NCBI GenBank assembly: GCA_027023425.1
Contig: JALVVL010000017.1
Location: 12,942-76,941, forward strand
Source: Anaerolineales bacterium
GTDB taxonomy: Bacteria; Chloroflexota; Anaerolineae; Anaerolineales; DRMV01
Direction: 5' to 3'
DNA: 64,000 nucleotides
Position 1 is the stretch's first letter. Each line of letters begins with the position of its first letter. Position numbers and translations under genes: made by a program. Below the pieces are notes generated by a model. The model ran no database searches and had not been told where the DNA came from. It saw only the letters and a program-made list of their open reading frames with translations. This document shows positions 4,849 through 52,250 of this stretch, one piece after another.

Positions 4849-6294
4849 CTAAGGGTAACCGGGAGAGGACGGCGGGTCAATAAACTGAGCGTATTCTTTT
4901 TTGAATACCAACTCTATCGTGCCCGTAGGGCCATTACGATGCTTTTCTACAATGATTTGGGCAAGGCCGGGGTTCTCCACAACCTCATCTTCCTTTGCGT
5001 AAACCTCAGGACGGTATATGAACATCACCACATCGGCATCCTGTTCCAGCGAGCCCGATTCGCGCAAATCCGAAAGCATGGGACGCCTATCGCCGCGGTG
5101 CTCCACGGCGCGCGAAAGTTGCGCCGCCGCCACCACAGGCACGTTCAACTCCCGCGCCAACACCTTCAGTTCGCGGGAAATTTGCGAAACTTCCTGCACG
5201 CGGTTTTCAACCCGCTTGCCAAGCGTCATCAACTGCAAATAGTCCACCATTATCAAATCCAAGCCGTATTCCAAATGCAAGCGCCGGGCTTTAGTCCGCA
5301 ATTGCAAAGGGGTGATAGCAGGCGTATCATCCAAAAAAATCGGCGCCTGATGAAGGTGGTCAACGGCGGCGGTCACCTTACGCCATTCTTCGTCGTTCAG
5401 CCTGCCGGTGCGCAATTTTTGCGAACTCACTTCAGTTTCCTGCGCTATCAAACGTTGCACCATTTGCTCATTGGACATTTCCAAGGAAAAAAGGGCAACC
5501 CGTTTGCGGTATTTTTGAGCGGCGGTGCGGGCAATGCTCAACAAAAAGCCGGTTTTGCCCATTCCCGGGCGGCCAGCAATTATGATAAAGTCCGAAGGCT
5601 GAAATCCATGCAAAAGGGCGTCAAGGTCTCTAAAGCCAGTAGGGACACCGAGGGCTTCATCTTGATGAGAGCGGAGATGATCAAGGTAGTTGTAGTACGA
5701 CTGCAACACCTCACTCAGGAGTTTGACCCCGCGCACCATGCGCCGCTCACTGACACTGAAGACAACCTTTTCTGCTTCGTCCAGAAGCGCATCAACATGA
5801 AGGTGGCGGGCATGGGCTAAGCGAGCGATCCGCTCAGCCGCCTCAAGCAAACGGCGGCGGACGGCCGCTTCCTCCACCAACTCGGCATAATGCGAAGCGT
5901 GAAGCGATGAGGGGACAGCCGCGGTGAGCCGCGCCAGATAAGCCTCGCCGCCAACCTCCTCAAGCCTCCCACGGCGCTTGAGTTCTTCGGCAATCGTCAA
6001 AGGGTCAACAGGCCGATGGCTCTCACTAAGGCTGACTATAGCCTCCCAAATCCAACGGTGGCGGGTTATGAAGAAATCCTCGGCCTTGATGATGGTGGCA
6101 ACTTCGGCGTACGTTTCGGGGTTGATGATAACCGCGCCCAGCACCGCCTCCTCTGCCTTGGTGTCGTGAAGAGGCGTAGCGGGCTCAGGAGCAGGCTCCG
6201 GCTGTGGCAAATCCTCAGCATAGCCCAAATCCACCGGCGGAGGGGCATCGGGCATATCGGGAGGCGGCGGGGGCGGAAGCATTTCGTCGCTCAT
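4849..6294 (-). CDS. dnaB: replicative DNA helicase DnaB
   Basis: 481 aa. N-terminal domain AEEAVLGAVIINPE, Walker A GRPGMGKT, plus SLEMS and DYLQLM. Its ATG overlaps the upstream stop as ATGA (6291-6294). Confidence 0.95.
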   Translation of the reverse strand: MSDEMLPPPPPPDMPDAPPPVDLGYAEDLPQPEPAPEPATPLHDTKAEEAVLGAVIINPETYAEVATIIKAEDFFITRHRWIWEAIVSLSESHRPVDPLTIAEELKRRGRLEEVGGEAYLARLTAAVPSSLHASHYAELVEEAAVRRRLLEAAERIARLAHARHLHVDALLDEAEKVVFSVSERRMVRGVKLLSEVLQSYYNYLDHLRSHQDEALGVPTGFRDLDALLHGFQPSDFIIIAGRPGMGKTGFLLSIARTAAQKYRKRVALFSLEMSNEQMVQRLIAQETEVSSQKLRTGRLNDEEWRKVTAAVDHLHQAPIFLDDTPAITPLQLRTKARRLHLEYGLDLIMVDYLQLMTLGKRVENRVQEVSQISRELKVLARELNVPVVAAAQLSRAVEHRGDRRPMLSDLRESGSLEQDADVVMFIYRPEVYAKEDEVVENPGLAQIIVEKHRNGPTGTIELVFKKEYAQFIDPPSSPGYP

Positions 6295-6932
6295 TGCTCA
6301 GACTCACCATCGTCATCAGGCGATTCATCCTCAGCATCGCCCAAATCCAATTTGTCAAGGAATTCGGCAAAGACAGAAAGGCTGTCCTCATTCTCGGTCA
6401 CAGGCTCGGTGGCTTCGGGGGAAGTCTCGCCACTCACCGCCGAGACACCGCCGGAAGAAGAGGCTAAATGCTCCTCAGGCTGAGGAGGCTGAGCGGCGGC
6501 TTCTTCCGATTGACCTAAATCTTCATCGGGGGTAATACCGGCTTCGTCCAAAACCTCGCGCGCCACAAAAATAGGCGCGTGCATCCGCACGGCAACGGCA
6601 ATGGCATCGGAAGGGCGCGAATCAATGTTGTAGATTCGTCCCTGATGGCTCAAGACAATGTTGCCGTAAAAAGTGCCTTCCCGCAAGGCGGTAACCTCCA
6701 CCCTATCAACGCGCGCCCCCAACGCCAAGAGGATGTTTTTGAGCAAATCATGCGTCATCGGGCGCGAAAGTTCAACCTCGTGCAAGGCCAGTTGGATGGC
6801 GTTTGCCTCGTATGCTCCAATCCAAATCGGCAAATAGCGCTTGCCGTTGCGCTCGCGCAGCAACAAAACCTGTTGCTGAGAGACAAGGCTCACGCGTATG
6901 CTGTCAATTTCCATTTCCACAAGGTCTGCCAT
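6291..6932 (-). CDS. bifunctional nuclease (BFN/DUF151) family protein with acidic C-terminal tail
   Basis: Motifs LPIWIGAYEANAI, RPMTHDL and RPSDAIAVAVR. aaggagg RBS. The C-terminal ~70 aa are rich in E, D and S. Confidence 0.8.
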   Translation of the reverse strand: MADLVEMEIDSIRVSLVSQQQVLLLRERNGKRYLPIWIGAYEANAIQLALHEVELSRPMTHDLLKNILLALGARVDRVEVTALREGTFYGNIVLSHQGRIYNIDSRPSDAIAVAVRMHAPIFVAREVLDEAGITPDEDLGQSEEAAAQPPQPEEHLASSSGGVSAVSGETSPEATEPVTENEDSLSVFAEFLDKLDLGDAEDESPDDDGESEQ

Positions 6933-29130: not shown

Positions 29131-29296
29131 CAAATTAAAACATAGAAGACACAGAAAATTACAGAGAACACAGAATTTTTCTTTGCGCCTCTGGGCGAGG
29201 CAATGCCTCGCCCCTACTCTGCGCCTCTGCGTTAATCTTGGCGCCCTTTGTGCCCTTGGCGTTAATCTCCGTATCTTCTGTGCAATCTGCGGCTTC
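29131..29296. repeat. family-C modular repeat, inverted orientation relative to 51775-52250
   Basis: The reverse complement contains aacgcagaggcgcagagtaggggcgaggcattgcctcgcccagaggcgcaaaga...ctgtgttctctgtaattttctgtgtc. This matches modules of the 51.8-kb array. Confidence 0.7.
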
Positions 29297-30510: not shown

Positions 30511-30536
30511 TACATTTATGGCTTTTTCCTGTCAGA

Positions 30537-33464
30537 CTACCGCACCGCCACCAGCACCGCCCGCACCATCCGGCGGAAGGGATAGTCTCCCGTGGCCGGG
30601 TCGTAGCCCTCACAAGTCACTAAGGTCAGAACATCATACTTTTCATGCTTCAACAGCATGTGGTGCGCCGCCCAACTTCGCGCCGATAAGCGCTTGTTCT
30701 CCCGCACTTCGTACACATACACCCGACCCCAGGCGTGGATTTCAATCCGGTCGCCATAGCGCAGGTCTTTGAGGTGCAGGAACGGCCCCGGGGTATTGTC
30801 CGCGTTCCACACATGCGCCGTCAGCACCGTGTTCCCGGCCCAAGTGGGGAAGGCCGTACCTTCCAACCAGCCCACTGCATTACCCAACCACGACACATCC
30901 CAGCCATTTTCCGTCAGGGGCACGCCCACGATGGGCAGGCCAAGCCCCAAGGATGGAATCGTCAGCCGCATGTCCATCCCAGCATAGGCTTTAGTGGCCG
31001 GCTGCTGCGGCAAAGTCGTGACCACCCCGCGCGGGAAACCGGTTTTAGGCGGCGCGGGATGTTGCACCACAAAATCATAGATGCTGTCATGGCCGCCGTT
31101 GAGGTGGTTGCCTACAAGATCAGTGATGGACGTAGTGCCGCACACGAAGAGGCGATAGGTGCCGTCAGGCAGGGGCACACCGTTGTTGATATGCGCCGTG
31201 GCCGTGAAGGTGGCGCTGTCGTAGGTCACGCTGTTCACGGTGATTCGGGTATCGTCGGCCTGCACACCGCCTGCGCAGGAGACGGTATCAAAAGCATCGT
31301 TCTTCCCCCGTTCCACCAGCAGGTAGTTGGCCGGATTGGTCACATCGTTGGGGCCGGTGTTGCCCGGCGGGTCATTCACGGCCTCGCTGAAATGCACTTG
31401 GAACGAAGTGAAACCTTGGGTGTAAGCAGAAGTTACAGGGGGACTGACAACTGTGGGCCCAGCCGCATCGTAAGTAACCGTATTGTCGGTGCTGGTGCTG
31501 GCATTGTTGGGGTTGCCGTCCCAATCAGCCACGCGGTTGGCCGCAATGGAAGCCGTCACGGTGCCCGCACCGCTCATACCGCTGACGGCGATATCAAAAG
31601 TCGTATGGTCATAAGGGCTAATCTCGGTAACAGTCGCCGAAAGTGTACCCGAGACTGTACCGCCCAAAGTAACATCAGAGGCATCAAAGGTTGCCGGATC
31701 CACAAAGGGAGTAAATACCGCTGTGAAATGGATGGGGCCTACGTTGGTCGGGTCGGGTTGAGTGGCGGCCTGATTCACGGTCACAGTAAGGGGTGCACGA
31801 CGCACTTCATAAGCCCCAATGTCGCAATGGCTGCCCTGGGGGCGGGCCACGCCGCGCTGGTCGGTGGACGGGCATTCATTGTCCGCCCCGGCGTCTATGG
31901 CGGGAGAGCCAGATTTGAGCGGAAAGACTTGCCGTCCAGGGCCTCCAAAGTCGGTGAGCGCACCTAATTGAGGGTCTTTGCCAATGATGTTGCCGTTGAC
32001 ACCGTCAGTTAAGCCGCAAGCGTGGGCACTGTCCTCAATCAGATTATGGCTTGAAGTATCAGCAATAGCGCTATTAGGGCCGAAGTTGACACAATCTCCA
32101 CCAGAACCGCTGTTGGCGATAATAACATTGATGAGCACTGGCTTGCTTTGGCCGGAGTTGTACATCCCATCACCATCACCACCGTGGGCCGAATTGTTAG
32201 AGAAGGTGACGTTTGTCAATACAGGGCTGCTGTCAAAATTTTCGATACCCCCACCATAATCATAGGCTGAATTACCAAAAAACGTGACGTTCGTCAGTCT
32301 GGGGTTGCTCTTGTAGTTGGAGAGCCCGCCTCCGCTGCCGAATAGTAAGAAATCAGTAAAGAAGCCAACCGCCGCATTGTGCATGAAGGTTACGTTCGTT
32401 AAAACAGGGCTACCCTCAACGCTAAGCATCCCACCACCAAAAGCGGCAGAATTCCCGGAGAAGGTCACATCTGTCAGTGTAAGGCTGCCGCCGTAATTGG
32501 AAATCCCGCCCCCATCACCATCGCCATAAACCGAATTTCCGGAGAAAGTCACATTTTTTAGGGTAAGGTTACTGCCGCCACTGGCTATTCCGCCGCCGTC
32601 ATAGAGGGCGTCATTATTGGAAAAGATAACATTTGTCAATTGAGGGCTTCCCCCACCGATGATCATCCCGCCGCCCGCCTCCTCGGCCTCGTTGCGGGAA
32701 AAGGTAACTTCCGTCAAAATAGGACTGCCCTCCTCTTCATACATCCCGCCGCCATCAAGGTAGGCGTGGTTATCAGAGAAAGTCACATGCGTAAGTTTAT
32801 GGCTACTGTAAACGCTGAAGATTCCGGCGCCATCGTAGGCCAAATTGCCAGAGAAGGTGACGTTCCGCAGCGTAAGGCTGCTGTGCTCGCTGTGTAGCCC
32901 GCCGCCCTCGCGTTTGGGGGAATAAAAATCTTCATCATTAGCCTGTCCCGCGGTGATAGTGAAGCCGTCCAGCACGGCGCCGTTGTTCACATGGATAGCG
33001 GTAAGGACATGATAAGCGTTGTTCCCAGCGAGGTCCAGAATGCTGGTGACCACACCGTGGGCATCGGTGGTGTCATTTTGGTCAATGTCCCCGCTGAGGA
33101 CAGTGATGTTGTGCTCTGGGTCGCGCTGGTCGCGGGCGGTTTCCGTGCCCGCGAAGCCGCCGTAAAGCGCCACCCCGTTCTTGAGCCGGAAGGTGCTGTT
33201 GCGGTCATCATTCGTCTGCCCGGCGCCTTCGTCCGGGTAGTACACGCCGGCTGCCACCCAAATTTCGGTGCAGCCGGCGTCGGCCAGCGCGTCCTGCAAG
33301 GTGGTGTAGGCATCGGCCCAACTGGTACCGTTGTTGGCACCGGTAGCGTCGGCCTTCACATAACAAATCGGCCCGGCCGCGCGCACCGCCGGTGCGGGCA
33401 ACAGGGCCAAGATGACGCTCAACACGAGCGCCGCACGGATCAGGCGTTGGAAAAAGGTTTGCAT
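30537..33464 (-). CDS. secreted parallel-beta-helix (Pmp/PbH1-like) protein with Ig-like modules and a C-terminal sortase domain, paralogue 1
   Basis: Signal peptide from MQTFFQRLIRAALVLSVILALLPAPAVRAAG. About 10 units of the L(T/K)NVTFSGNSA..GGG type, then DQRGVARPQGSHCDIGAYE. C-terminal His (VLTAH), Cys (TLVTC, 30612-30614) and Arg (PFRRMV), with sortase-like spacing of 67 and 13 aa. PPKTGF lies at 31035-31052. Confidence 0.8.
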   Translation of the reverse strand: MQTFFQRLIRAALVLSVILALLPAPAVRAAGPICYVKADATGANNGTSWADAYTTLQDALADAGCTEIWVAAGVYYPDEGAGQTNDDRNSTFRLKNGVALYGGFAGTETARDQRDPEHNITVLSGDIDQNDTTDAHGVVTSILDLAGNNAYHVLTAIHVNNGAVLDGFTITAGQANDEDFYSPKREGGGLHSEHSSLTLRNVTFSGNLAYDGAGIFSVYSSHKLTHVTFSDNHAYLDGGGMYEEEGSPILTEVTFSRNEAEEAGGGMIIGGGSPQLTNVIFSNNDALYDGGGIASGGSNLTLKNVTFSGNSVYGDGDGGGISNYGGSLTLTDVTFSGNSAAFGGGMLSVEGSPVLTNVTFMHNAAVGFFTDFLLFGSGGGLSNYKSNPRLTNVTFFGNSAYDYGGGIENFDSSPVLTNVTFSNNSAHGGDGDGMYNSGQSKPVLINVIIANSGSGGDCVNFGPNSAIADTSSHNLIEDSAHACGLTDGVNGNIIGKDPQLGALTDFGGPGRQVFPLKSGSPAIDAGADNECPSTDQRGVARPQGSHCDIGAYEVRRAPLTVTVNQAATQPDPTNVGPIHFTAVFTPFVDPATFDASDVTLGGTVSGTLSATVTEISPYDHTTFDIAVSGMSGAGTVTASIAANRVADWDGNPNNASTSTDNTVTYDAAGPTVVSPPVTSAYTQGFTSFQVHFSEAVNDPPGNTGPNDVTNPANYLLVERGKNDAFDTVSCAGGVQADDTRITVNSVTYDSATFTATAHINNGVPLPDGTYRLFVCGTTSITDLVGNHLNGGHDSIYDFVVQHPAPPKTGFPRGVVTTLPQQPATKAYAGMDMRLTIPSLGLGLPIVGVPLTENGWDVSWLGNAVGWLEGTAFPTWAGNTVLTAHVWNADNTPGPFLHLKDLRYGDRIEIHAWGRVYVYEVRENKRLSARSWAAHHMLLKHEKYDVLTLVTCEGYDPATGDYPFRRMVRAVLVAVR

Positions 33465-33524
33465 AGCAGCCCCCGATAAGGCATCCTGCTTCCCCCGCGG
33501 GTGCTTCGGCAAAGCCTCAGCACC

Positions 33525-33561
33525 GCGCCCCGCTCTCTCCCCTTGGGAGAGAGCGGGGCGC
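33525..33561. repeat. perfect GC-rich hairpin related to the family-D core
   Basis: gcgccccgctctctcccc / ttgg / gagagagcggggcgc. It lies between the two paralogues, 120 nt downstream of paralogue 2, in the 5' region of paralogue 1. No U-tract follows it. Confidence 0.6.
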
Positions 33562-33683
33562 AGCCGCCGAGCATGAGCGATGCGGCGGGGGATAAGTAAA
33601 GGTGTTCAGACATAACAGCGCTACTTTCATCGTCAACCGATTTTTTCTTCTTCAAACAGTGTTCTCAACGGCGGGCCAAGGGA

Positions 33684-36587
33684 CTACCGCACCGCCACCA
33701 GCACCGCCCGCACCATCCGGCGGAAGGGGTAGTCTCCCGTGGCCGGGTCGTAGCCCTCGCAGGTCACTAAGGTCAGAACATCATACTTTTCATGCTTCAA
33801 CAGCATGTGGTGCGCCGCCCAACTTCGTGCCGGTAAGCGCTTGTTCTCCCGCACTTCGTACACATACACCCGGCCCCAGGCGTGGATTTCAATCCGGTCG
33901 CCATAGTGCAGGTCTTTGAGGTGCAGGAACGGCCCCGGGGTATTGTCCGCGTTCCACACATGCGCCGTCAGCACCGTGTTCCCGGCCCAAGTGGGGAAGG
34001 CCGTACCTTCCAACCAGCCCACTGCATTACCCAACCACGACACATCCCAGCCATTTTCCGTCAGGGGCACGCCCACGATGGGCAGGCCAAGCCCCAAGGA
34101 TGGAATCGTCAGCCGCATGTCCATCCCAGCATAGGCTTTAGTGGCCGGCTGCTGCGGCAAAGTCGTGACCACCCCGCGCGGGAAACCGGTTTTAGGCGGC
34201 GCGGGATGTTGCACCACAAAGTCATAGATGCTGTCATGGCCGCCGTTGAGGTGGTTGCCCACAAGATCAGTGATGGACGTAGTGCCGCACACGAAGAGGC
34301 GATAGGTGCCGTCAGGCAGGGGCACACCGTTGTTGATGTGCACCGTGGCCGTGAAAGTGGCGCTGTCGTAGGTCACGCTGTTCACGGGGATTCGGGTGTC
34401 GTCGGCCTGCACACCGCCTGCGCAGGAGACGGTATCAAAAGCATCGTTCTTCCCCCGTTCCACCAGCAGGTAGTTGGCCGGGTTGGTCACATCGTTGGGA
34501 TCGGTGTTACCGGGCGGGTCATTCACGGCCTCGCTGAAATGCACTTGGAACGAAGTGAAACCTTGGGTGTAAGCAGAAGTTACAGGGGGACTGACAACTG
34601 TAGGCCCAGCAGCATCGTAAGTAACCGTATTGTCGGTGCTGGTGCTGGCATTGTTGGGGTTGCCGTCCCAATCAGCCACGCGGTTGGCCGCAATGGAAGC
34701 CGTCACGGTGCCCGCACCGCTCATACCGCTGATGGCGATATCAAAAGTCGTATGGTCATAAGGGCTAATCTCGGTAACAGTCGCCGAAAGTGTACCCGAG
34801 ACTGTACCGCCCAAAGTAACATCAGAGGCTTCAAAGGTTGCCGGATCCACAAAGGGGGTAAATACCGCTGTGAAATGGATGGGGCCTACGTTGGTCGGGT
34901 CGGGTTGAGTGGCGGCCTGATTCACGGTCACAGTAAGGGGTGCACGACGCACTTCATAAGCCCCAATGTCGCAATGGCTGCCCTGGGGGCGGGCCACGCC
35001 GCGCTGGTCGGTGGACGGGCATTCATTGTCCGCCCCGGCGTCTATGGCGGGAGAGCCAGATTTGAGGGGAAAGACTTGCCGTCCAGGGCCTCCAAAGTCG
35101 GTGAGCGCACCTAATTGAGGGTCTTTGCCAATGATGTTGCCGTTGACACCGTCAGTCAGACCGCAGGCATGGGCACTGTCTTCAATCAAGTTGTGGCCTG
35201 AATTCGTGGAGATCGTGGCATTAGAGTCATTGGCGCAATCCCCGCCGGAAGGACTGTTCGCGATGATAACGTTGGTCAGTACGGGAGTGCTGTTGCCCCC
35301 ATTGAAGATCCCACCGCCGTTATTAGCTGAATTATCAGAGAATGTCACGTTAGTTAATACAGGACTGCTGTCGTAATTACCACTATAGGTGTAGAATCCA
35401 CCGCCATTACCATACGCCGAATTGCCAGAAAAGGTGACGTTCTTCAATATAGGACTTCTGTGATAACTATAGTTGTAAATTCCTCCTCCATCTTCGTAAA
35501 GAGCCGAATTGTCAGAAAAAGTGACATTTATGAGAAATAGCCCGCCATCATTGTTAAACAAGCCACCACCCCCATAATACGCCGAGTTATTCGTGAAAAT
35601 AACCTCCCTCAATGTGGGGTTACCCCAAAAGTTGTACATCCCCCCGCCATCAGTGATCTCAGCCGAATTGCCGGAGAAAGAAACGCCTATCAGTATAGGA
35701 TTGCCAGAGTCATTATACATCCCACCCCCTTCATAAGCCAAATTATCTGAGAAGGTCACATTCGTCAGCTTAAGACTACTTTCAATACTATACACCCCAC
35801 CACCAGCGCCGTTATGAGCAGAGTTGCTCCCAAAAGTAACGTCTACCAGCGTAGGATTACCACCCCAAATGTACATTCCCCCACCGCTGCGGTTAGCTGA
35901 ATTATTAGAGAAAGTAATGTGTGTTAACGTGGGAGTGCCATTATTATTGTATATCCCACCCCCATCATAAGCCAAGTTGCCGGCAAAGGTAACATCCCGC
36001 AGTGTAGGGTCGCTGCGATTGTTGTACATCCCGCCACCCACGCTATTGGGATAATTTCCATTGGCCTGTCCGGCGGTAATAATGACACCGTCTAGGATAG
36101 TGCCGCTGTATGCCCCGCTGCCGGTGACCACATGGTAAGCGTTACCCCCACTGATGTTGTTGGTGTCAACGACCACACCGTGGGCATCGGTGGTGTCATT
36201 TTGGTCAATGTCCCCGCTGAGGACGGTGATGTTGTGCTCTGGGTCGCGCTGGTCGCGGGCGGTTTCCGTGCCCGCAAAGCCACCGTAAAGTGCCACGCCG
36301 TTCTTGAGCCGGAAGGTGCTGTTGCGGTCGTCGTTCGTCTGCCCTGCGCCTTCATCCGGGTAGTACACGCCGGCTGCCACCCAGATTTCGGTGCAGCCGG
36401 CGTCGGCCAGTGCGTCCTGCAAGGTGGTGTAGGCGTCGGCCCAACTGGTGCCGTTGTTGGCACCGGTAGCGTCGACCTTCACGTAACAAATTGGCCCGGC
36501 CGCGCGCGCCGCGGGCGCGGGCAACAGGGCTAAGATGACGCTCAACACGAGCGCCGCACGGATCAGGCGTTGGAAGAAAGTGTTCAT
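33684..36587 (-). CDS. secreted parallel-beta-helix protein with C-terminal sortase domain, paralogue 2
   Basis: Same architecture as 30537-33464, starting at MNTFFQRLIRAALVL (ATG 36587). The last ~495 aa differ from paralogue 1 at only 7 positions. PPKTGF lies at 34182-34199 and the TLVTC Cys codon at 33759-33761. Confidence 0.8.
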   Translation of the reverse strand: MNTFFQRLIRAALVLSVILALLPAPAARAAGPICYVKVDATGANNGTSWADAYTTLQDALADAGCTEIWVAAGVYYPDEGAGQTNDDRNSTFRLKNGVALYGGFAGTETARDQRDPEHNITVLSGDIDQNDTTDAHGVVVDTNNISGGNAYHVVTGSGAYSGTILDGVIITAGQANGNYPNSVGGGMYNNRSDPTLRDVTFAGNLAYDGGGIYNNNGTPTLTHITFSNNSANRSGGGMYIWGGNPTLVDVTFGSNSAHNGAGGGVYSIESSLKLTNVTFSDNLAYEGGGMYNDSGNPILIGVSFSGNSAEITDGGGMYNFWGNPTLREVIFTNNSAYYGGGGLFNNDGGLFLINVTFSDNSALYEDGGGIYNYSYHRSPILKNVTFSGNSAYGNGGGFYTYSGNYDSSPVLTNVTFSDNSANNGGGIFNGGNSTPVLTNVIIANSPSGGDCANDSNATISTNSGHNLIEDSAHACGLTDGVNGNIIGKDPQLGALTDFGGPGRQVFPLKSGSPAIDAGADNECPSTDQRGVARPQGSHCDIGAYEVRRAPLTVTVNQAATQPDPTNVGPIHFTAVFTPFVDPATFEASDVTLGGTVSGTLSATVTEISPYDHTTFDIAISGMSGAGTVTASIAANRVADWDGNPNNASTSTDNTVTYDAAGPTVVSPPVTSAYTQGFTSFQVHFSEAVNDPPGNTDPNDVTNPANYLLVERGKNDAFDTVSCAGGVQADDTRIPVNSVTYDSATFTATVHINNGVPLPDGTYRLFVCGTTSITDLVGNHLNGGHDSIYDFVVQHPAPPKTGFPRGVVTTLPQQPATKAYAGMDMRLTIPSLGLGLPIVGVPLTENGWDVSWLGNAVGWLEGTAFPTWAGNTVLTAHVWNADNTPGPFLHLKDLHYGDRIEIHAWGRVYVYEVRENKRLPARSWAAHHMLLKHEKYDVLTLVTCEGYDPATGDYPFRRMVRAVLVAVR

Positions 36588-36681
36588 GGCTGCCCCCAGC
36601 GGAATCCTCCGAAAGTGTTCTTTGAGACGGGCTATGTAAAAATTATACCGCAAAAACGGCGCCCCATTGCGACTTTCAGAA

Positions 36682-36722: not shown

Positions 36723-37649
36723 ATGCCCCAGAGTGCGCCTCCCTCTAAAGAACCATTGGCTCCATACCTTCCTGCCATCACCCAGAGGGTATTCTCACCC
36801 GTGTCACCGCCGTTGAAGTGGGCTGGGGGGAAAGCGGCTTTGCTCCCGCAAATGCGAAAGCACTTTCCCGAAGTTTTTGGGCGTTACCATGAGCCGTTTC
36901 TTGGAGGCGGGGCAGTATTTTTTTATTTATCCCCGCAACGCGGCGCTAAGGCTTTTCTCTCTGACCTCAACGAAGAACTCATCAATTTTTACCTTGTGCT
37001 TCGTGAGCAGGTGGATGATTTACTCAAGGAAGTGCGGGCATTGCACGAAACTTACCTCCGGCTTGGCGAAACAGAACGCGAGAAATTGTATTATGAATGG
37101 CGCAACGCCGACCGCACTCCGGAATTCAAAAAATGGTCTCCCTTGCGGCGGGCAGTTAGGTTTTATTTCCTCAACAAAACCGCCTTCAACGGTCTTTATC
37201 GTATCAACCGACAAGGCTTGTTCAATGTACCGTGGGGTGGATACAAACGCCCCGCGCTTTACCGCCCACAATTGTTGCGCGATGCCGCGGCTGTTTTGCG
37301 AAAGTTTGCCGTTTTTCTAAAAGCCACATCGTTTGAAATTGTGTTGGACAACGCCCAAAGCGGCGATTTTGTCTATTTTGACCCTCCCTATGCGCCTGTA
37401 TCAGCGACGGCATCCTTCACCACCTACACTTCAGGCGGTTTTGGAGAGGCAGAACAACGGCATCTGGCGAGCGTATGCCACGAGTTAGACCGCCGCGGCG
37501 TCATGTTTTTGCTTTCCAACAGCGATTTGCCGTGGGTGCGAGCGCTCTACACGGGCTTTGCTGTATTCACCGTGCAGGCTCGCCGCAATATCAACAGCAA
37601 AGGCGACAAACGGGGCCCGGTCAATGAAATTCTCGTGCGCAATTACTGA
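36723..37649 (+). CDS. Dam-family (alpha-class, D12) N6-adenine DNA methyltransferase
   Basis: N-terminal LKWAGGKAALLPQM, motif I EPFLGGGAVFF, and catalytic DPPY (37380-37391). Confidence 0.85.
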   Translation: MPQSAPPSKEPLAPYLPAITQRVFSPVSPPLKWAGGKAALLPQMRKHFPEVFGRYHEPFLGGGAVFFYLSPQRGAKAFLSDLNEELINFYLVLREQVDDLLKEVRALHETYLRLGETEREKLYYEWRNADRTPEFKKWSPLRRAVRFYFLNKTAFNGLYRINRQGLFNVPWGGYKRPALYRPQLLRDAAAVLRKFAVFLKATSFEIVLDNAQSGDFVYFDPPYAPVSATASFTTYTSGGFGEAEQRHLASVCHELDRRGVMFLLSNSDLPWVRALYTGFAVFTVQARRNINSKGDKRGPVNEILVRNY

Positions 37650-37664
37650 AACAGGAGCATCGCA

Positions 37665-38996
37665 ATGACCCAACGCGACAAAGCATGGGAAGCCATTTTT
37701 GAGGGGGAGCACATTCCACAAACGCTGGAGAAGCAAGGCTGGGCAACGATCACGACAGAGGTCATCCGCAAAAAGTATCACAAAGAACCACGGCTTTTAG
37801 CAAAAACCGATGCCTATGAGGCGCTTCCCGAAGTGTTCCGCAAAAACGACGCGGCGCTGCTTTCGCTGACTAATGAAGAGTATGCCATCCTCCGCTTAGG
37901 GAACAAAGGCAAACCTCTTTTTCCGAAACTGCCGCCTGTGATTGGCAGGCCGACGCATATACTCATTGAAGATTGCGCTCGGCGTATCGTGACCCTGCCG
38001 TGGGAGGAACATTTCACCAGCGAGTCTCAAGCCATTGATGCCGCACTGGCGGCACACATTTTACAGAATTTTGTGGGCGACGAAAGACTTGTGCTCACTA
38101 TACGGGGGCGAAGGTGGTTTCAGAAATCCTTGCCTCTGCGTTTCTCACTCAAAGGCAGGGTGACCGAGTTTCCTTTGAAAGCGCGCGGTTTCCAAATAGA
38201 GGTGGACGGGGGCTATGAGTCTCCCCGCCATGTGTACCTTCTGGAAGCCAAAAACAAAGCCCACAAAACTTTCAACTTGCGACAGGTAATGTTTCCCTAC
38301 CTATTTTGGAAAGATTATCTACGCGGGCGAAATACCACTAAAACCGTCCGTCCCATTTACATGGTTTACACCGCGCACAATTATTTCCTCTACGAATTCA
38401 CCGTAGAAAAAGAAGATGTGCTCAACTCGCTTCATGTTGTGCGCGCAGGATGGTATGTGCTTGGTGCACCGCCGCTAACCTTAGCCTACATTAGAGAAAT
38501 AGTGCAAACTCACACACCGGCAGATGTTCGGAATGTTCCGTTTCCTCAGGCCGACTCGTTCCTGCGGCTGTATGATATTTTGGAGGAAGTCAAACGCAAA
38601 GGTGCGCTCACTGCAAACGAGATTGCCGAACACCAAGAGTTTACCCTGCGTCAGGGCAACTATTATGCCTCGGCAGCGCGATGGCTTGGCTGGCTGGGAA
38701 AACGGGGAAACGCTTTCGTAATCAGCAAGGATGGCAAGAGGCTTTTGGCCTCTGCCCTCAACGAAAGGCCAAGGCTGATTTTGCAACGGCTGGCACAGCG
38801 CCCGGTTTTCCACGAGGCGCTGCAGTGGTGGGCAACCACTGCCAAATTGCCCACAAAGGGGCAAATTGAACAATGGATTGTTCAAGCCATTGAGAGCAAA
38901 CAGATCAAAGCGCTATCCCAAAGCACCATTCCGCGTCGGGCGAGCACCGTCGCCGGATGGCTCCAAATCCTTGCCGCATGGGTGCGAACACCATGA
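37665..38996 (+). CDS. putative restriction endonuclease (PD-(D/E)xK core) with C-terminal helix-rich, wHTH-like region
   Basis: Motif FQIEVD(181)GGY...12 aa...LLE(194)AK(196) at 38205-38252. It starts 16 nt after the methylase stop with an acaggagc RBS. I recognise no family, so the call rests on the motif plus its position next to the methylase. Confidence 0.5.
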   Translation: MTQRDKAWEAIFEGEHIPQTLEKQGWATITTEVIRKKYHKEPRLLAKTDAYEALPEVFRKNDAALLSLTNEEYAILRLGNKGKPLFPKLPPVIGRPTHILIEDCARRIVTLPWEEHFTSESQAIDAALAAHILQNFVGDERLVLTIRGRRWFQKSLPLRFSLKGRVTEFPLKARGFQIEVDGGYESPRHVYLLEAKNKAHKTFNLRQVMFPYLFWKDYLRGRNTTKTVRPIYMVYTAHNYFLYEFTVEKEDVLNSLHVVRAGWYVLGAPPLTLAYIREIVQTHTPADVRNVPFPQADSFLRLYDILEEVKRKGALTANEIAEHQEFTLRQGNYYASAARWLGWLGKRGNAFVISKDGKRLLASALNERPRLILQRLAQRPVFHEALQWWATTAKLPTKGQIEQWIVQAIESKQIKALSQSTIPRRASTVAGWLQILAAWVRTP

Positions 38997-51774: not shown

Positions 51775-52250
51775 GGTAACGCAGAGGCGCAGAGTAGGGG
51801 CGAGGCATCGCCTCGCCCAGAGGCGCAAAGAGAAAACCACAGATTACACAGATTAGCACAGATTTTTGCTGTGTTCTCTGCAAATTTCTGTGTCCTCTGT
51901 GGTTTCTCCTTCAATCGGTGTAAATCTGTGTCAATCGGTGGATGAGAACGCAAAGGACGCCAAGGGTAACGCAAAGACGCAGAGGAAACAAAGAGCACAA
52001 AGAGAAAACCGCAGATTACACAGATTAGCACAGATTTTTGCTGTGTTCTCTGCAAATTTCTGTGTCCTCTGTGGTTTCTCCTTCAATCGGTGAAAATCTG
52101 TGTCAATCTGTGGATAAGAAACCACAGATTACACAGATTAGCACAGATTTTTCTGTGTTCTCTGTAAATTTCTGTGTCCTCTGTGGTTTCTCCTTCAATC
52201 GGTGTAAATCTGTGTCAATCGGTGGATGGTGACGCTAAGGATGCCAAGGA
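51775..52250. repeat. family-C modular repeat array: three ~110-bp self-complementary units plus flanking acgcagagg / gccaagg modules
   Basis: Units lie at 51834-51943, 52006-52115 and 52119-52227. Each has the form aaaccRcagattacacagattagcacagattttt..ctgtgttctctg.aaatttctgtgtcctctgtggtttctccttcaatcggtg.aaatctgtgtcaatc.gtggat. Confidence 0.85.

What the first reader, a model, noticed from the sequence alone, without database searches (positions are those of the whole stretch)
30537..36653. Mosaic identity between the tandem paralogues: homogenised ends, strongly diverged central beta-helix cassette
The direct-repeat offset is 3147 nt in the 3' block, spanning about 30537-32000 versus 33684-35147. 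I count only 7 aa differences over the last ~495 aa there. The 5' block, about 33049-33464 versus 36172-36587, has an offset of 3123 nt. It shows only 3 aa differences in ~137 aa but visibly more synonymous changes. The ~1-kb centre holds the Pmp-like repeat units. It cannot be aligned residue by residue and differs in length by 24 nt. Homology stops at the stop codon and a few nt upstream of the ATG. This pattern fits recent gene conversion of the sortase/Ig end. It also fits diversification or cassette exchange of the exposed beta-helix, meaning adhesin specificity or antigenic variation.
Basis: seen in the sequence. Interest (0 to 1): 0.6.

Follow-up and report, generated by a model that had tools for sequence, protein, structure and literature searches.

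The report
Tandem surface-protein genes with homogenised ends
Two neighbouring genes for large secreted beta-helix proteins in an uncultured Anaerolineae-type bacterium keep near-identical ends by copying sequence from each other while their middles stay very different, which is a well-known way for bacterial surface-protein families to evolve.

Summary
Gene A (30537-33464, minus strand) and gene B (33684-36587, minus strand) share two near-identical blocks. The 5' block is 94% identical, with dS 0.23. The 3' block is 98.3% identical, with dS about 0.05-0.075. Between them lies a centre that is about 62% identical, with dS saturated. The breakpoints are sharp, at about 33048 and 32010.

A syntenic tandem pair in a relative (L082, about 91% identical in flanking DNA) settles the mechanism. 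The centres pair by orthology: B-b' 95.5%, A-a' 73.7%, A-B about 62%. The end blocks pair by genome: paralogues 94-100%, orthologues 86-89%. This is concerted evolution by gene conversion after the species split. The centres are excluded because they share no exact run longer than 13 nt.

"Antigenic variation" is not supported. No silent cassettes occur in the window. The A centre is 99.5-99.9% identical across four assemblies.

Cassette exchange is possible. Centre GC3 is 51-58%, against 68-80% in the ends, and the two centres differ sixfold in orthologue dS.

Differences between assemblies fall almost only on sites where the paralogues differ. Some of this looks like repeat collapse by the assembler.

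The 3' block encodes an LPxTG-like motif fused to a sortase domain, which is the more unusual feature. Overall this is a new member of a known kind.

The parts
30537..33464 (-). Gene A, 975 aa. Order of parts: signal peptide, parallel beta-helix with PMP-type repeats, choice-of-anchor Q domain, two Ig-like domains, LPxTG-like motif, sortase domain.
   Evidence: ORF and translation. Pfam Sortase, Beta_helix and Chlam_PMP. NCBIfam choice_anch_Q scores 84 bits against a cutoff of 25. The AF2 model has mean pLDDT 79, with the beta-helix at residues 33-500 above 90.
33684..36587 (-). Gene B, 967 aa, a tandem paralogue with the same architecture.
33048..33474 (-). 5' homogenised block of A. It covers 10 nt upstream of the ATG, the signal peptide, the N-terminal cap and the first rungs (aa 1-139).
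   Evidence: 94.2% identical to B's block, dS 0.23, dN 0.013. It groups by genome against L082.
36171..36597 (-). 5' homogenised block of B, at an offset of +3123.
32010..33047 (-). Diverged centre cassette of A (aa 140-485; the aa/codon statistics were computed on aa 140-472). It holds about 13 beta-helix rungs of ~26 aa. GC3 is 57.8%.
   Evidence: About 62% nt and 49-53% aa identity to B, dS about 2, dN 0.35. The orthologue in L082 is only 73.7% identical. The longest exact run shared with B is 10 nt in register and 13 nt in any register.
35157..36170 (-). Diverged centre cassette of B. GC3 is 51.2%.
   Evidence: 95.5% identical to the centre of L082 gene b' (P0003), dS 0.12.
30535..32009 (-). 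3' homogenised block of A. It covers the last rungs, choice-of-anchor Q (31803-31976), two Ig-like domains, the PPKTGF motif (31035-31052) and the sortase domain (30540-30968).
   Evidence: 25 mismatches in 1475 nt against B, with identical runs up to 313 nt. It is 98% identical to B but only 87% identical to L082 b'.
33682..35156 (-). 3' homogenised block of B, at an offset of +3147. PPKTGF is at 34182-34199 and the sortase domain at 33687-34115.
33475..33681 (-). Spacer between the stop codon of B and the start of A. It is not repeated elsewhere in the locus.
   Evidence: It has no similarity to the regions upstream of B or downstream of A. It is 88-89% conserved in L082, so the tandem order is ancestral.

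Best explanation
A and B are an old tandem pair of genes for secreted, probably wall-attached, beta-helix surface proteins. Each gene has three parts:
- a generic 5' module (signal peptide and N-terminal cap);
- a centre of about 13 beta-helix rungs that is specific to each paralogue;
- a generic 3' module (choice-of-anchor Q domain, Ig-like stalk, LPxTG-like motif and sortase domain).

Homologous recombination between the direct repeats repeatedly copies the 5' and 3' modules from one gene to the other. This is non-reciprocal gene conversion, and it makes the ends evolve in concert within each genome.

The centres have diverged so far (no exact match longer than 13 nt) that strand exchange cannot start or continue there. 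Conversion tracts therefore stop at the module borders, and the two centres persist as separate cassettes on one conserved scaffold.

Shown: the mosaic, its breakpoints, the synonymous-site contrast, and grouping of the ends by genome but of the centres by orthologue.

Inferred: RecA-type conversion as the process, exclusion of the centre through lack of homology (selection for two specificities may add to it), and a role in adhesion or ligand binding.

The same repeats probably also allow unequal crossing-over. Contigs from a 98.4% strain carry a single hybrid gene made of B's upstream region and its first ~75 nt joined to the rest of A. That structure needs read-level confirmation.
For: 1. 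Divergence by block. The 5' block has dS 0.23 and dN 0.013. The centre has dS about 2 and dN 0.35. The 3' block has dS 0.075, or about 0.03-0.07 past the boundary ramp. The maximum chi-square is 601 against a permuted maximum of 18.

2. L082 is a different study and is about 91% identical in the RecJ, DUF6996 and MTase flanks. It has the same order, MTase then b' then spacer then a'.
- Centres: B-b' 95.5%, A-a' 73.7%, and A-B and a'-b' 61-62%.
- 5' blocks: A-B 94.2% and a'-b' 97.8%, with 390 nt identical; all orthologue pairs are 86-89%.
- 3' blocks: A-B 97.7% over codons, but B-b' 87.7% and A-b' 86.8%.

3. The conversion boundary differs between lineages, at +417 in the window and +386 in L082. 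The events were therefore independent.

4. Exact runs reach 54 nt in the 5' block and 313 nt in the 3' block, but only 10-13 nt in the centre.

5. The tandem pair is present in three independent assemblies: the window, L001 and L082.

6. L083 carries at least three tandem family genes, with near-identical 332-nt spacers and 94-100% patches in different gene pairs.

7. In the centre, A-B identity sits on core rung positions. L, V, F, N, A and G are identical in 8-9 of 9 rungs, and turn positions in only 1-3 of 9.
Against: - No reads were available. The phase of the paralogue-specific sites across identical stretches of 209-313 nt in the window's 3' block cannot be verified.
- The 22 differences between the window and L001 all make L001's two copies identical in the interior of the block. 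Only sites within about 80 nt of unique sequence stay distinct there. That is what repeat collapse in a de Bruijn assembler produces, so it cannot be counted as observed conversion.
- The 100% identical 5' blocks in L082 could be inflated in the same way.
- The a' gene is cut by the contig end, so concerted evolution of the 3' block is shown for the window's lineage only.
- RecA dependence and the function of the proteins are inferred, not tested.
Confidence: 0.8

Rival explanations
1. There is no recombination. The ends are similar only because purifying selection on the secretion and anchoring modules is strong, while the centre is free to drift.
For: dN/dS in the ends is low, at 0.06-0.08. 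The ends encode conserved machinery.
Against: Selection on protein sequence does not hold synonymous sites. dS is 0.05-0.23 in the ends against about 2 in the centre. Orthologous ends are more diverged (dS 0.35-0.49) than paralogous ends in the same genome.
Confidence: 0.03
2. The pair or its mosaic is an assembly artefact: one gene duplicated, or two alleles or strains stitched in tandem.
For: These are metagenome assemblies. The fine-scale pattern of paralogue-specific sites differs between assemblies in a way typical of repeat collapse.
Against: The same B-spacer-A order occurs in the window, in L001 (a different assembly) and in L082 (a different study, about 91% identical), with an 88-89% conserved unique spacer. 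The centres differ at 38% of nt, and each has its own orthologue.
Confidence: 0.03
3. The duplication is recent, which is why the ends are similar. One copy's centre was then replaced by a foreign beta-helix cassette.
For: Centre GC3 is 51-58%, against 68-80% in the ends and 67-84% in housekeeping genes. Orthologue dS is unequal for the two centres.
Against: Both centre types and the spacer already exist in the same order in L082. The two-cassette state is therefore older than the species split, whereas the similarity of the ends is younger than it. Cassette replacement may still have occurred on top of conversion, notably for A-type centres.
Confidence: 0.08
4. The locus is a programmed antigenic- or phase-variation system, in which the expressed centre is swapped with silent cassettes.
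For: The layout of conserved arms around a variable centre resembles expression-site systems.
Against: tblastn finds only the two full genes in the 64 kb. The A centre is 99.5-100% identical in four assemblies, including a 98.4% strain. No recombinase is adjacent according to the gene lists. Centre dN/dS is below 0.3.
Confidence: 0.03

Closest known systems
Helicobacter pylori babA/babB/babC outer-membrane adhesin paralogues
   Same: [quoted passage not shown] Intragenomic gene conversion through the conserved ends produces chimeras (PMC4552749). The hybrid B/A gene in L080 and L081 would be the counterpart of a babB/A chimera.
   Different: The bab loci are dispersed, not tandem. Their products are outer-membrane beta-barrel proteins of a diderm pathogen, and expression is phase-variable through CT repeats. 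Here the genes are adjacent, the organism is an environmental Chloroflexota-type bacterium, the anchor is an LPxTG-like motif plus a sortase domain, and no phase-variation repeat was seen.
Chlamydia polymorphic membrane protein (Pmp) family
   Same: Both have GGA(I/L/V)/FxxN-type repeats that build a parallel beta-helix passenger (Pfam PF02415 and TIGR01376 hits). Both occur as clustered paralogues. The clustering of Pmp genes is from my own knowledge.
   Different: Pmps are type V autotransporters with a C-terminal beta-barrel. A and B have no such barrel and end in a sortase domain.
Choice-of-anchor Q domain proteins (NCBIfam NF041518)
   Same: Both genes hit the model at 83-84 bits against a cutoff of 25, at aa 497-554 and 489-546. 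Many homologues are so named by NCBI.
   Different: The family is defined by a 58-aa domain found with various C-terminal anchors. Here the anchor position is taken by an LPxTG-like motif followed by a whole sortase domain.
Concerted evolution of duplicated bacterial genes (tufA/tufB, rRNA operons)
   Same: Paralogues in one genome stay more alike than orthologues between species, through RecA-dependent conversion. This is from my own knowledge of the classic cases.
   Different: In those cases the whole gene is homogenised. Here only the ends are, and a recombination-proof centre is preserved.
Sortase-anchored LPXTG surface proteins of monoderm bacteria
   Same: Both have an N-terminal signal peptide, an extended passenger with an Ig-like stalk, and an (L/P)PxTG motif near the C-terminus.
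   Different: A canonical sorting signal continues with a hydrophobic helix and a charged tail, and the sortase is a separate membrane protein. Here no hydrophobic segment follows the motif, and the sortase domain is part of the same chain.

Membership tests
Concerted evolution by inter-paralogue gene conversion | In the converted segments, paralogues within a genome are more similar than orthologues between genomes | tested here: met
   5' block: 94.2% and 97.8% within genomes, against 86-89% between them. 3' block: 97.7% for A-B against 86.8-87.7% to L082 b'.
Concerted evolution by inter-paralogue gene conversion | The unconverted segment keeps orthologous relationships | tested here: met
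   Centres: B-b' 95.5%, A-a' 73.7%, all A-type against B-type pairs 61-63%.
Concerted evolution by inter-paralogue gene conversion | Abrupt shifts in synonymous divergence along the gene | tested here: met
   dS runs 0.23, about 2, then 0.075. Maximum chi-square 601 against a permuted maximum of 18.
Concerted evolution by inter-paralogue gene conversion | Conversion tracts seen segregating among strains | tested here: inconclusive
   All 22 differences between the window and L001 are at paralogue-specific sites and change to the paralogue's base. L080 and L081 are A/B mosaics in the 3' block. The pattern is equally what assembler repeat collapse gives.
Programmed antigenic variation with silent cassettes (pilE/pilS, vlsE type) | Promoterless donor cassettes for the variable segment | tested here: not met
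   tblastn of A against the window finds only A and B. The rest of the genome was not available.
Programmed antigenic variation with silent cassettes (pilE/pilS, vlsE type) | The variable segment differs between closely related strains or within a population | tested here: not met
   The A centre shows 0, 1 and 5 differences in 1038 nt in L001, L081 and L080. Meanwhile the 3' block shows 7-31 differences in 1473 nt.
Chlamydial Pmp autotransporters | PMP (GGAI/FxxN) repeats | tested here: met
   PF02415 at E 5e-9 and 1e-15. TIGR01376 at 42.5 bits against a cutoff of 15.
Chlamydial Pmp autotransporters | C-terminal autotransporter beta-barrel | tested here: not met
   The C-terminus is a sortase domain by Pfam, NCBIfam and Foldseek.
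Choice-of-anchor Q domain proteins (NF041518) | HMM score above the curated cutoff | tested here: met
   84.1 and 83.3 bits against a cutoff of 25.
Canonical LPXTG sortase substrates | LPXTG pentapeptide near the C-terminus | tested here: inconclusive
   A and B have PPKTG. Relatives have LPETG, LPKTG, LPATG or LPSTG. P, T, G and F are invariant in 20 of 20 aligned members. Cleavage was not tested.
Canonical LPXTG sortase substrates | The motif is followed by a hydrophobic helix and a positively charged tail | tested here: not met
   No 19-aa Kyte-Doolittle window above 1.6 occurs after residue 60; the maximum is 1.38. A sortase domain follows the motif instead.
Sortase classes A-F | Sortase fold with the catalytic His, Cys and Arg | tested here: met
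   PF04203 at 64-65 bits against a cutoff of 26.6. H884 is invariant and C951 and R964 are nearly so. Foldseek hits to SrtC, SrtA and SrtE have probability 1.0.
Sortase classes A-F | Score above a class-specific NCBIfam cutoff | tested here: not met
   The best is class F at 42 bits against a cutoff of 166. Classes C, D and E, and also the class GN model, are all far below their cutoffs.
Sortase classes A-F | Own N-terminal membrane anchor | tested here: not met
   The domain sits at the C-terminus of a 975-aa secreted protein. The only hydrophobic segment is the N-terminal signal peptide.

The most novel reading that the evidence does not exclude
The homogenised 3' block is a self-contained anchoring cartridge, an LPxTG-like motif fused in the same chain to its own sortase domain. 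Each passenger would carry a single-turnover transpeptidase that cleaves its own motif and couples the beta-helix to the envelope or to another protein. The conserved ends would also serve as homology arms through which beta-helix cassettes are exchanged within and between lineages. This would make the locus a modular 'plug-in' surface-protein system in Chloroflexota.
Probability: 0.25. Interest if true: 0.7.

Novelty: new member of a known kind. Interest (0 to 1): 0.4.

Why it matters
The locus gives a clean, quantified example of segmental concerted evolution in a poorly studied phylum. The generic secretion and anchoring modules are homogenised, while two binding cassettes are preserved side by side.

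It shows that the modular evolution known from pathogen adhesins such as the H. pylori Bab proteins also operates in environmental Anaerolineae-type bacteria.

It is also a practical warning. Repeats of this kind cause metagenome assemblers to collapse or mis-phase sequence, so strain differences at such loci should not be read as biology without the reads.

The fused LPxTG-sortase end is widespread in this family, and I found no description of it in the searchable literature. It is the part most worth an experiment.

Tried and rejected
- Exact look-ups of protein A by sequence found nothing. The cluster route did give the other assemblies.
- A protein search with the B centre alone returned only 36-57% relatives and not even B itself. 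It could not show whether the 98.4% strain has a B copy.
- The scan of GTDB species genomes gave a best hit of 59%. The scan of JGI metagenomes gave a best hit of 50%. Neither found a close relative, so no further complete orthologous pairs were obtained.
- P0105 looked like a possible A-type orthologue. It is a distant family member in an unrelated context.
- Rfam found nothing in the window.
- The promoter and terminator scan was at chance level.
- Literature searches for a fused LPXTG-sortase, or for sortases of Anaerolineae or Chloroflexi, found nothing relevant.
- I first read the 22 differences between the window and L001 as live conversion tracts. I rejected that reading as unsafe. In L001 the two copies are identical throughout the interior of the block and differ only within about 80 nt of unique sequence, which is the signature of repeat collapse.
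- I considered whether the low dS of the B centre proves recent inter-species transfer. At 0.12 it lies below, but close to, RecJ at 0.17, so on its own it does not.
Full report
**What is there**

On the minus strand lie two adjacent genes. Gene A runs from 30537 to 33464 and encodes 975 aa. Gene B runs from 33684 to 36587 and encodes 967 aa. A unique 207-nt spacer separates them.

Upstream of B, and divergent from it, is a D12-class adenine methyltransferase gene with a DUF6996/6997/7226 partner, followed by recJ. Downstream of A is a ROK-family gene and then F420-related genes.

Both proteins have the same plan:
- an N-terminal signal peptide, which is the only hydrophobic segment;
- a long parallel beta-helix built from ~26-aa PMP-type rungs (Pfam Chlam_PMP and Beta_helix, TIGR01376; AF2 pLDDT above 90 for residues ~33-500);
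- a choice-of-anchor Q domain (NF041518, 84 bits against a cutoff of 25);
- two Ig-like beta-sandwich domains;
- a PPKTGF motif;
- a C-terminal sortase domain with the catalytic His, Cys and Arg.

Homologues are overwhelmingly from Anaerolineae and Anaerolineales MAGs.

**Checking the observation**

- The 3' blocks (30535-32009 and 33682-35156, offset 3147) differ at 25 of 1475 nt. Seven of the last 503 aa differ.
- The 5' blocks (33048-33474 and 36171-36597, offset 3123) differ at 24 of 417 coding nt and 3 of 139 aa.
- The centres are 1038 and 1014 nt long.

Nei-Gojobori estimates:

| Segment | dS | dN |
|---|---|---|
| 5' block | 0.23 | 0.013 |
| Centre | about 2 | 0.35 |
| 3' block | 0.075 | 0.006 |

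A two-breakpoint maximum chi-square of 601 places the breaks at 33050 and 32042. The highest value from permutations was 18.

One correction is needed. The centre does align at protein level, at 49-53% identity with few gaps and the same series of rungs. Its identities sit on the core positions of each rung. L, V, F, N, A and G are identical in 8-9 of 9 rungs. The turn positions are identical in only 1-3 of 9.

**The decisive comparison**

Protein P0003 led to contig L082. It comes from a different study and is about 91% identical to the window across recJ, the DUF6996 gene and the methyltransferase gene. It has the same order: methyltransferase, b', spacer, a'. The a' gene is cut by the contig end. 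The spacer is 88-89% conserved, so the tandem arrangement predates the split of the two lineages.

Segment identities:

| Segment | Paralogues within a genome | Orthologues between genomes |
|---|---|---|
| Centre | A-B and a'-b' 61-62% | B-b' 95.5%, A-a' 73.7% |
| 5' block | A-B 94.2%, a'-b' 97.8% | all four cross-genome pairs 86-89% |
| 3' block | A-B 97.7% | B-b' 87.7%, A-b' 86.8% |

The centres group by orthology. The 5' and 3' blocks group by genome. In L082, 390 nt of the 5' block are identical between a' and b'.

The duplication and the A/B centre split are therefore older than the speciation. The similarity of the ends is younger than the speciation. That is concerted evolution by gene conversion.

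The inner boundary of the 5' block lies at +417 in the window and at +386 in L082. The conversions in the two lineages were therefore independent events.

A more distant relative, L083, has at least three tandem family genes. Their 332-nt spacers are nearly identical, and patches of 94-100% identity occur in different gene pairs. Patchwork homogenisation thus recurs in this family.

**Why the centre is spared**

Between A and B the longest exact run is 313 nt in the 3' block and 54 nt in the 5' block. In the centre it is only 10 nt in register, or 13 nt in any register.

From general knowledge, RecA-mediated exchange needs roughly 20-30 nt of identity. Conversion tracts should therefore end at the block borders. 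That step is an inference. Selection to keep two different binding surfaces may contribute as well.

**Is the centre a swapped or fast-evolving cassette?**

The evidence is mixed.

Against rapid switching:
- The A centre is 99.5-100% identical in four assemblies, including a strain that is 98.4% identical overall.
- Centre dN/dS is 0.13-0.29.
- The window holds no third copy.

For a history different from that of the ends:
- Centre GC3 is 57.8% in A and 51.2% in B. It is 80% in the 5' blocks, 68-69% in the 3' blocks and 67-84% in neighbouring housekeeping genes.
- Orthologue dS is 0.77 for the A-type centre but 0.12 for the B-type centre. Flanking genes give 0.17-0.44.

Adjacent segments inherited vertically should not differ sixfold in dS. 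At least one cassette, most likely the A-type, probably has a non-vertical or accelerated history. GC-biased conversion of the ends could also explain part of the GC3 contrast.

**Variation among assemblies, and a caution**

L001 comes from sample SAMN10217875. It matches the window over 15,946 nt with 22 mismatches. All 22 lie at paralogue-specific sites in the 3' block, and each changes to the other paralogue's base.

This looks like live conversion, but in L001 the two copies are identical throughout the interior of the block. They differ only at three sites within about 80 nt of unique sequence. A de Bruijn assembler that collapses a repeat produces exactly this, so I do not count it as evidence.

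For the same reason, the window's own phasing across identical stretches of 209-313 nt is unverified.

L080 and L081 come from samples SAMN10217876 and SAMN10217878 and are about 98.4% identical to the window. Each carries a single gene with these features:
- Its upstream 145 nt and about the first 75 coding nt are B-like.
- The rest of the 5' block, the centre and the downstream flank are A-like.
- Its 3' block is an A/B mosaic.

This is the product expected from unequal crossing-over in the 5' block, which would delete 3.1 kb. No B-type protein from those samples is in the 15-billion-protein collection, which fits that reading. A mis-join through a collapsed repeat cannot be excluded.

One 27-nt patch in L081 (31278-31304, nine changes) is identical to the L082 b' allele. 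This hints at short-tract exchange between lineages, or at retained polymorphism.

**Comparison with known systems**

The closest functional analogue is the H. pylori Bab family. Its members have near-identical N- and C-terminal regions and a divergent middle that carries specificity, and gene conversion through the ends generates chimeras (PMC4552749).

The repeats are of the chlamydial Pmp type, but the autotransporter barrel is absent. A and B are therefore not Pmp-family autotransporters.

They are choice-of-anchor Q proteins by the curated model.

They are not canonical LPXTG substrates, because no hydrophobic helix or charged tail follows the motif. Their sortase domain reaches no class-specific cutoff; the best score is 42 bits against 166.

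**The unusual by-product**

The motif (L/P)PxTGF lies immediately upstream of the sortase domain. It is invariant at P, T, G and F in 20 of 20 aligned family members. About a quarter of the top 120 homologues carry the same sortase tail behind various passenger domains. A substrate-like motif and its enzyme thus sit in one secreted chain, which suggests self-processing or self-anchoring. I found no description of this in the searchable literature. That absence is not proof of novelty.

**Verdict**

- Gene conversion of the ends is well supported.
- The centres are old, scaffold-conserving, paralogue-specific cassettes, with signs of a non-vertical history.
- Antigenic variation is not supported.
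- The phenomenon is a new member of a well-known kind. Interest is moderate, and is raised somewhat by the fused LPxTG-sortase module.

Noticed in passing
window 31035-31052 and 30540-30968 (A); 34182-34199 and 33687-34115 (B): An LPxTG-like motif lies directly upstream of a C-terminal sortase domain in the same secreted protein. A and B have PPKTGF, and relatives have LPETGF, LPKTGF or LPATGF. The catalytic His, Cys and Arg are intact, and no membrane helix follows the motif. The motif is invariant at P, T, G and F in 20 of 20 family members. The sortase domain falls below every class-specific NCBIfam cutoff. No paper describing this was found.
   Followed up: partly
L080 1-4121 and L081 1-3073 (equivalent to window 36732-36588 joined to 33474-30537): Contigs from a ~98.4% strain carry one hybrid gene: B's upstream region and about the first 75 nt joined to the rest of A. 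The switch lies around window 33390-33385. It is either a 3.1-kb deletion by unequal crossing-over or an assembler mis-join.
   Followed up: partly
window 31278-31304 (compared in L081 and L082): L081 carries a 27-nt patch with nine changes relative to both A and B. The patch is identical to the allele of the ~91% relative's gene b'. Eleven of L081's 15 private sites in the 3' block match that allele. This is either short-tract exchange between lineages or retained polymorphism.
   Followed up: partly
window 36723-38996; L080 62-1024: The neighbour upstream of the pair varies between strains. The window, L001 and L082 have a D12 adenine methyltransferase plus a DUF6996/6997/7226 protein, both with low GC3 (56%). 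L080 instead has a 320-aa protein with a weak NucS_C (PD-(D/E)XK nuclease-like) hit. Homology ends at 36732, at the methyltransferase start. It looks like a small variable restriction or defence islet.
   Followed up: partly
window 29176-29234 and 51777-51836: A ~60-nt intergenic element with a GC-rich hairpin (GGGCGAGGCA.TGCCTCGCCC) occurs twice in opposite orientation, at 96.7% identity. It is flanked by short 'cacaga'-type repeats. It has no Rfam match and resembles a REP or MITE element.
   Followed up: no
L082 about 6138-6449 (equivalent to window ~34596): The orthologue b' (P0003, 1067 aa) has an extra ~95-aa Ig-like domain (Pfam Big_12) inserted in the stalk relative to B. The number of stalk domains therefore also varies between lineages.
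   Followed up: no
L083 1-7363: A more distant relative has at least three tandem family genes with different numbers of beta-helix rungs (780 aa against 931 aa). Their 332-nt spacers are identical over the first 180 nt. Patches of 94-100% identity occur in different gene pairs.
   Followed up: partly
window 30735-31967 (+) and 33882-35114 (+): Two 410-aa antisense ORFs lie inside the 3' blocks of A and B. They are most likely by-products of the GC-rich coding strand, duplicated along with the block.
   Followed up: no
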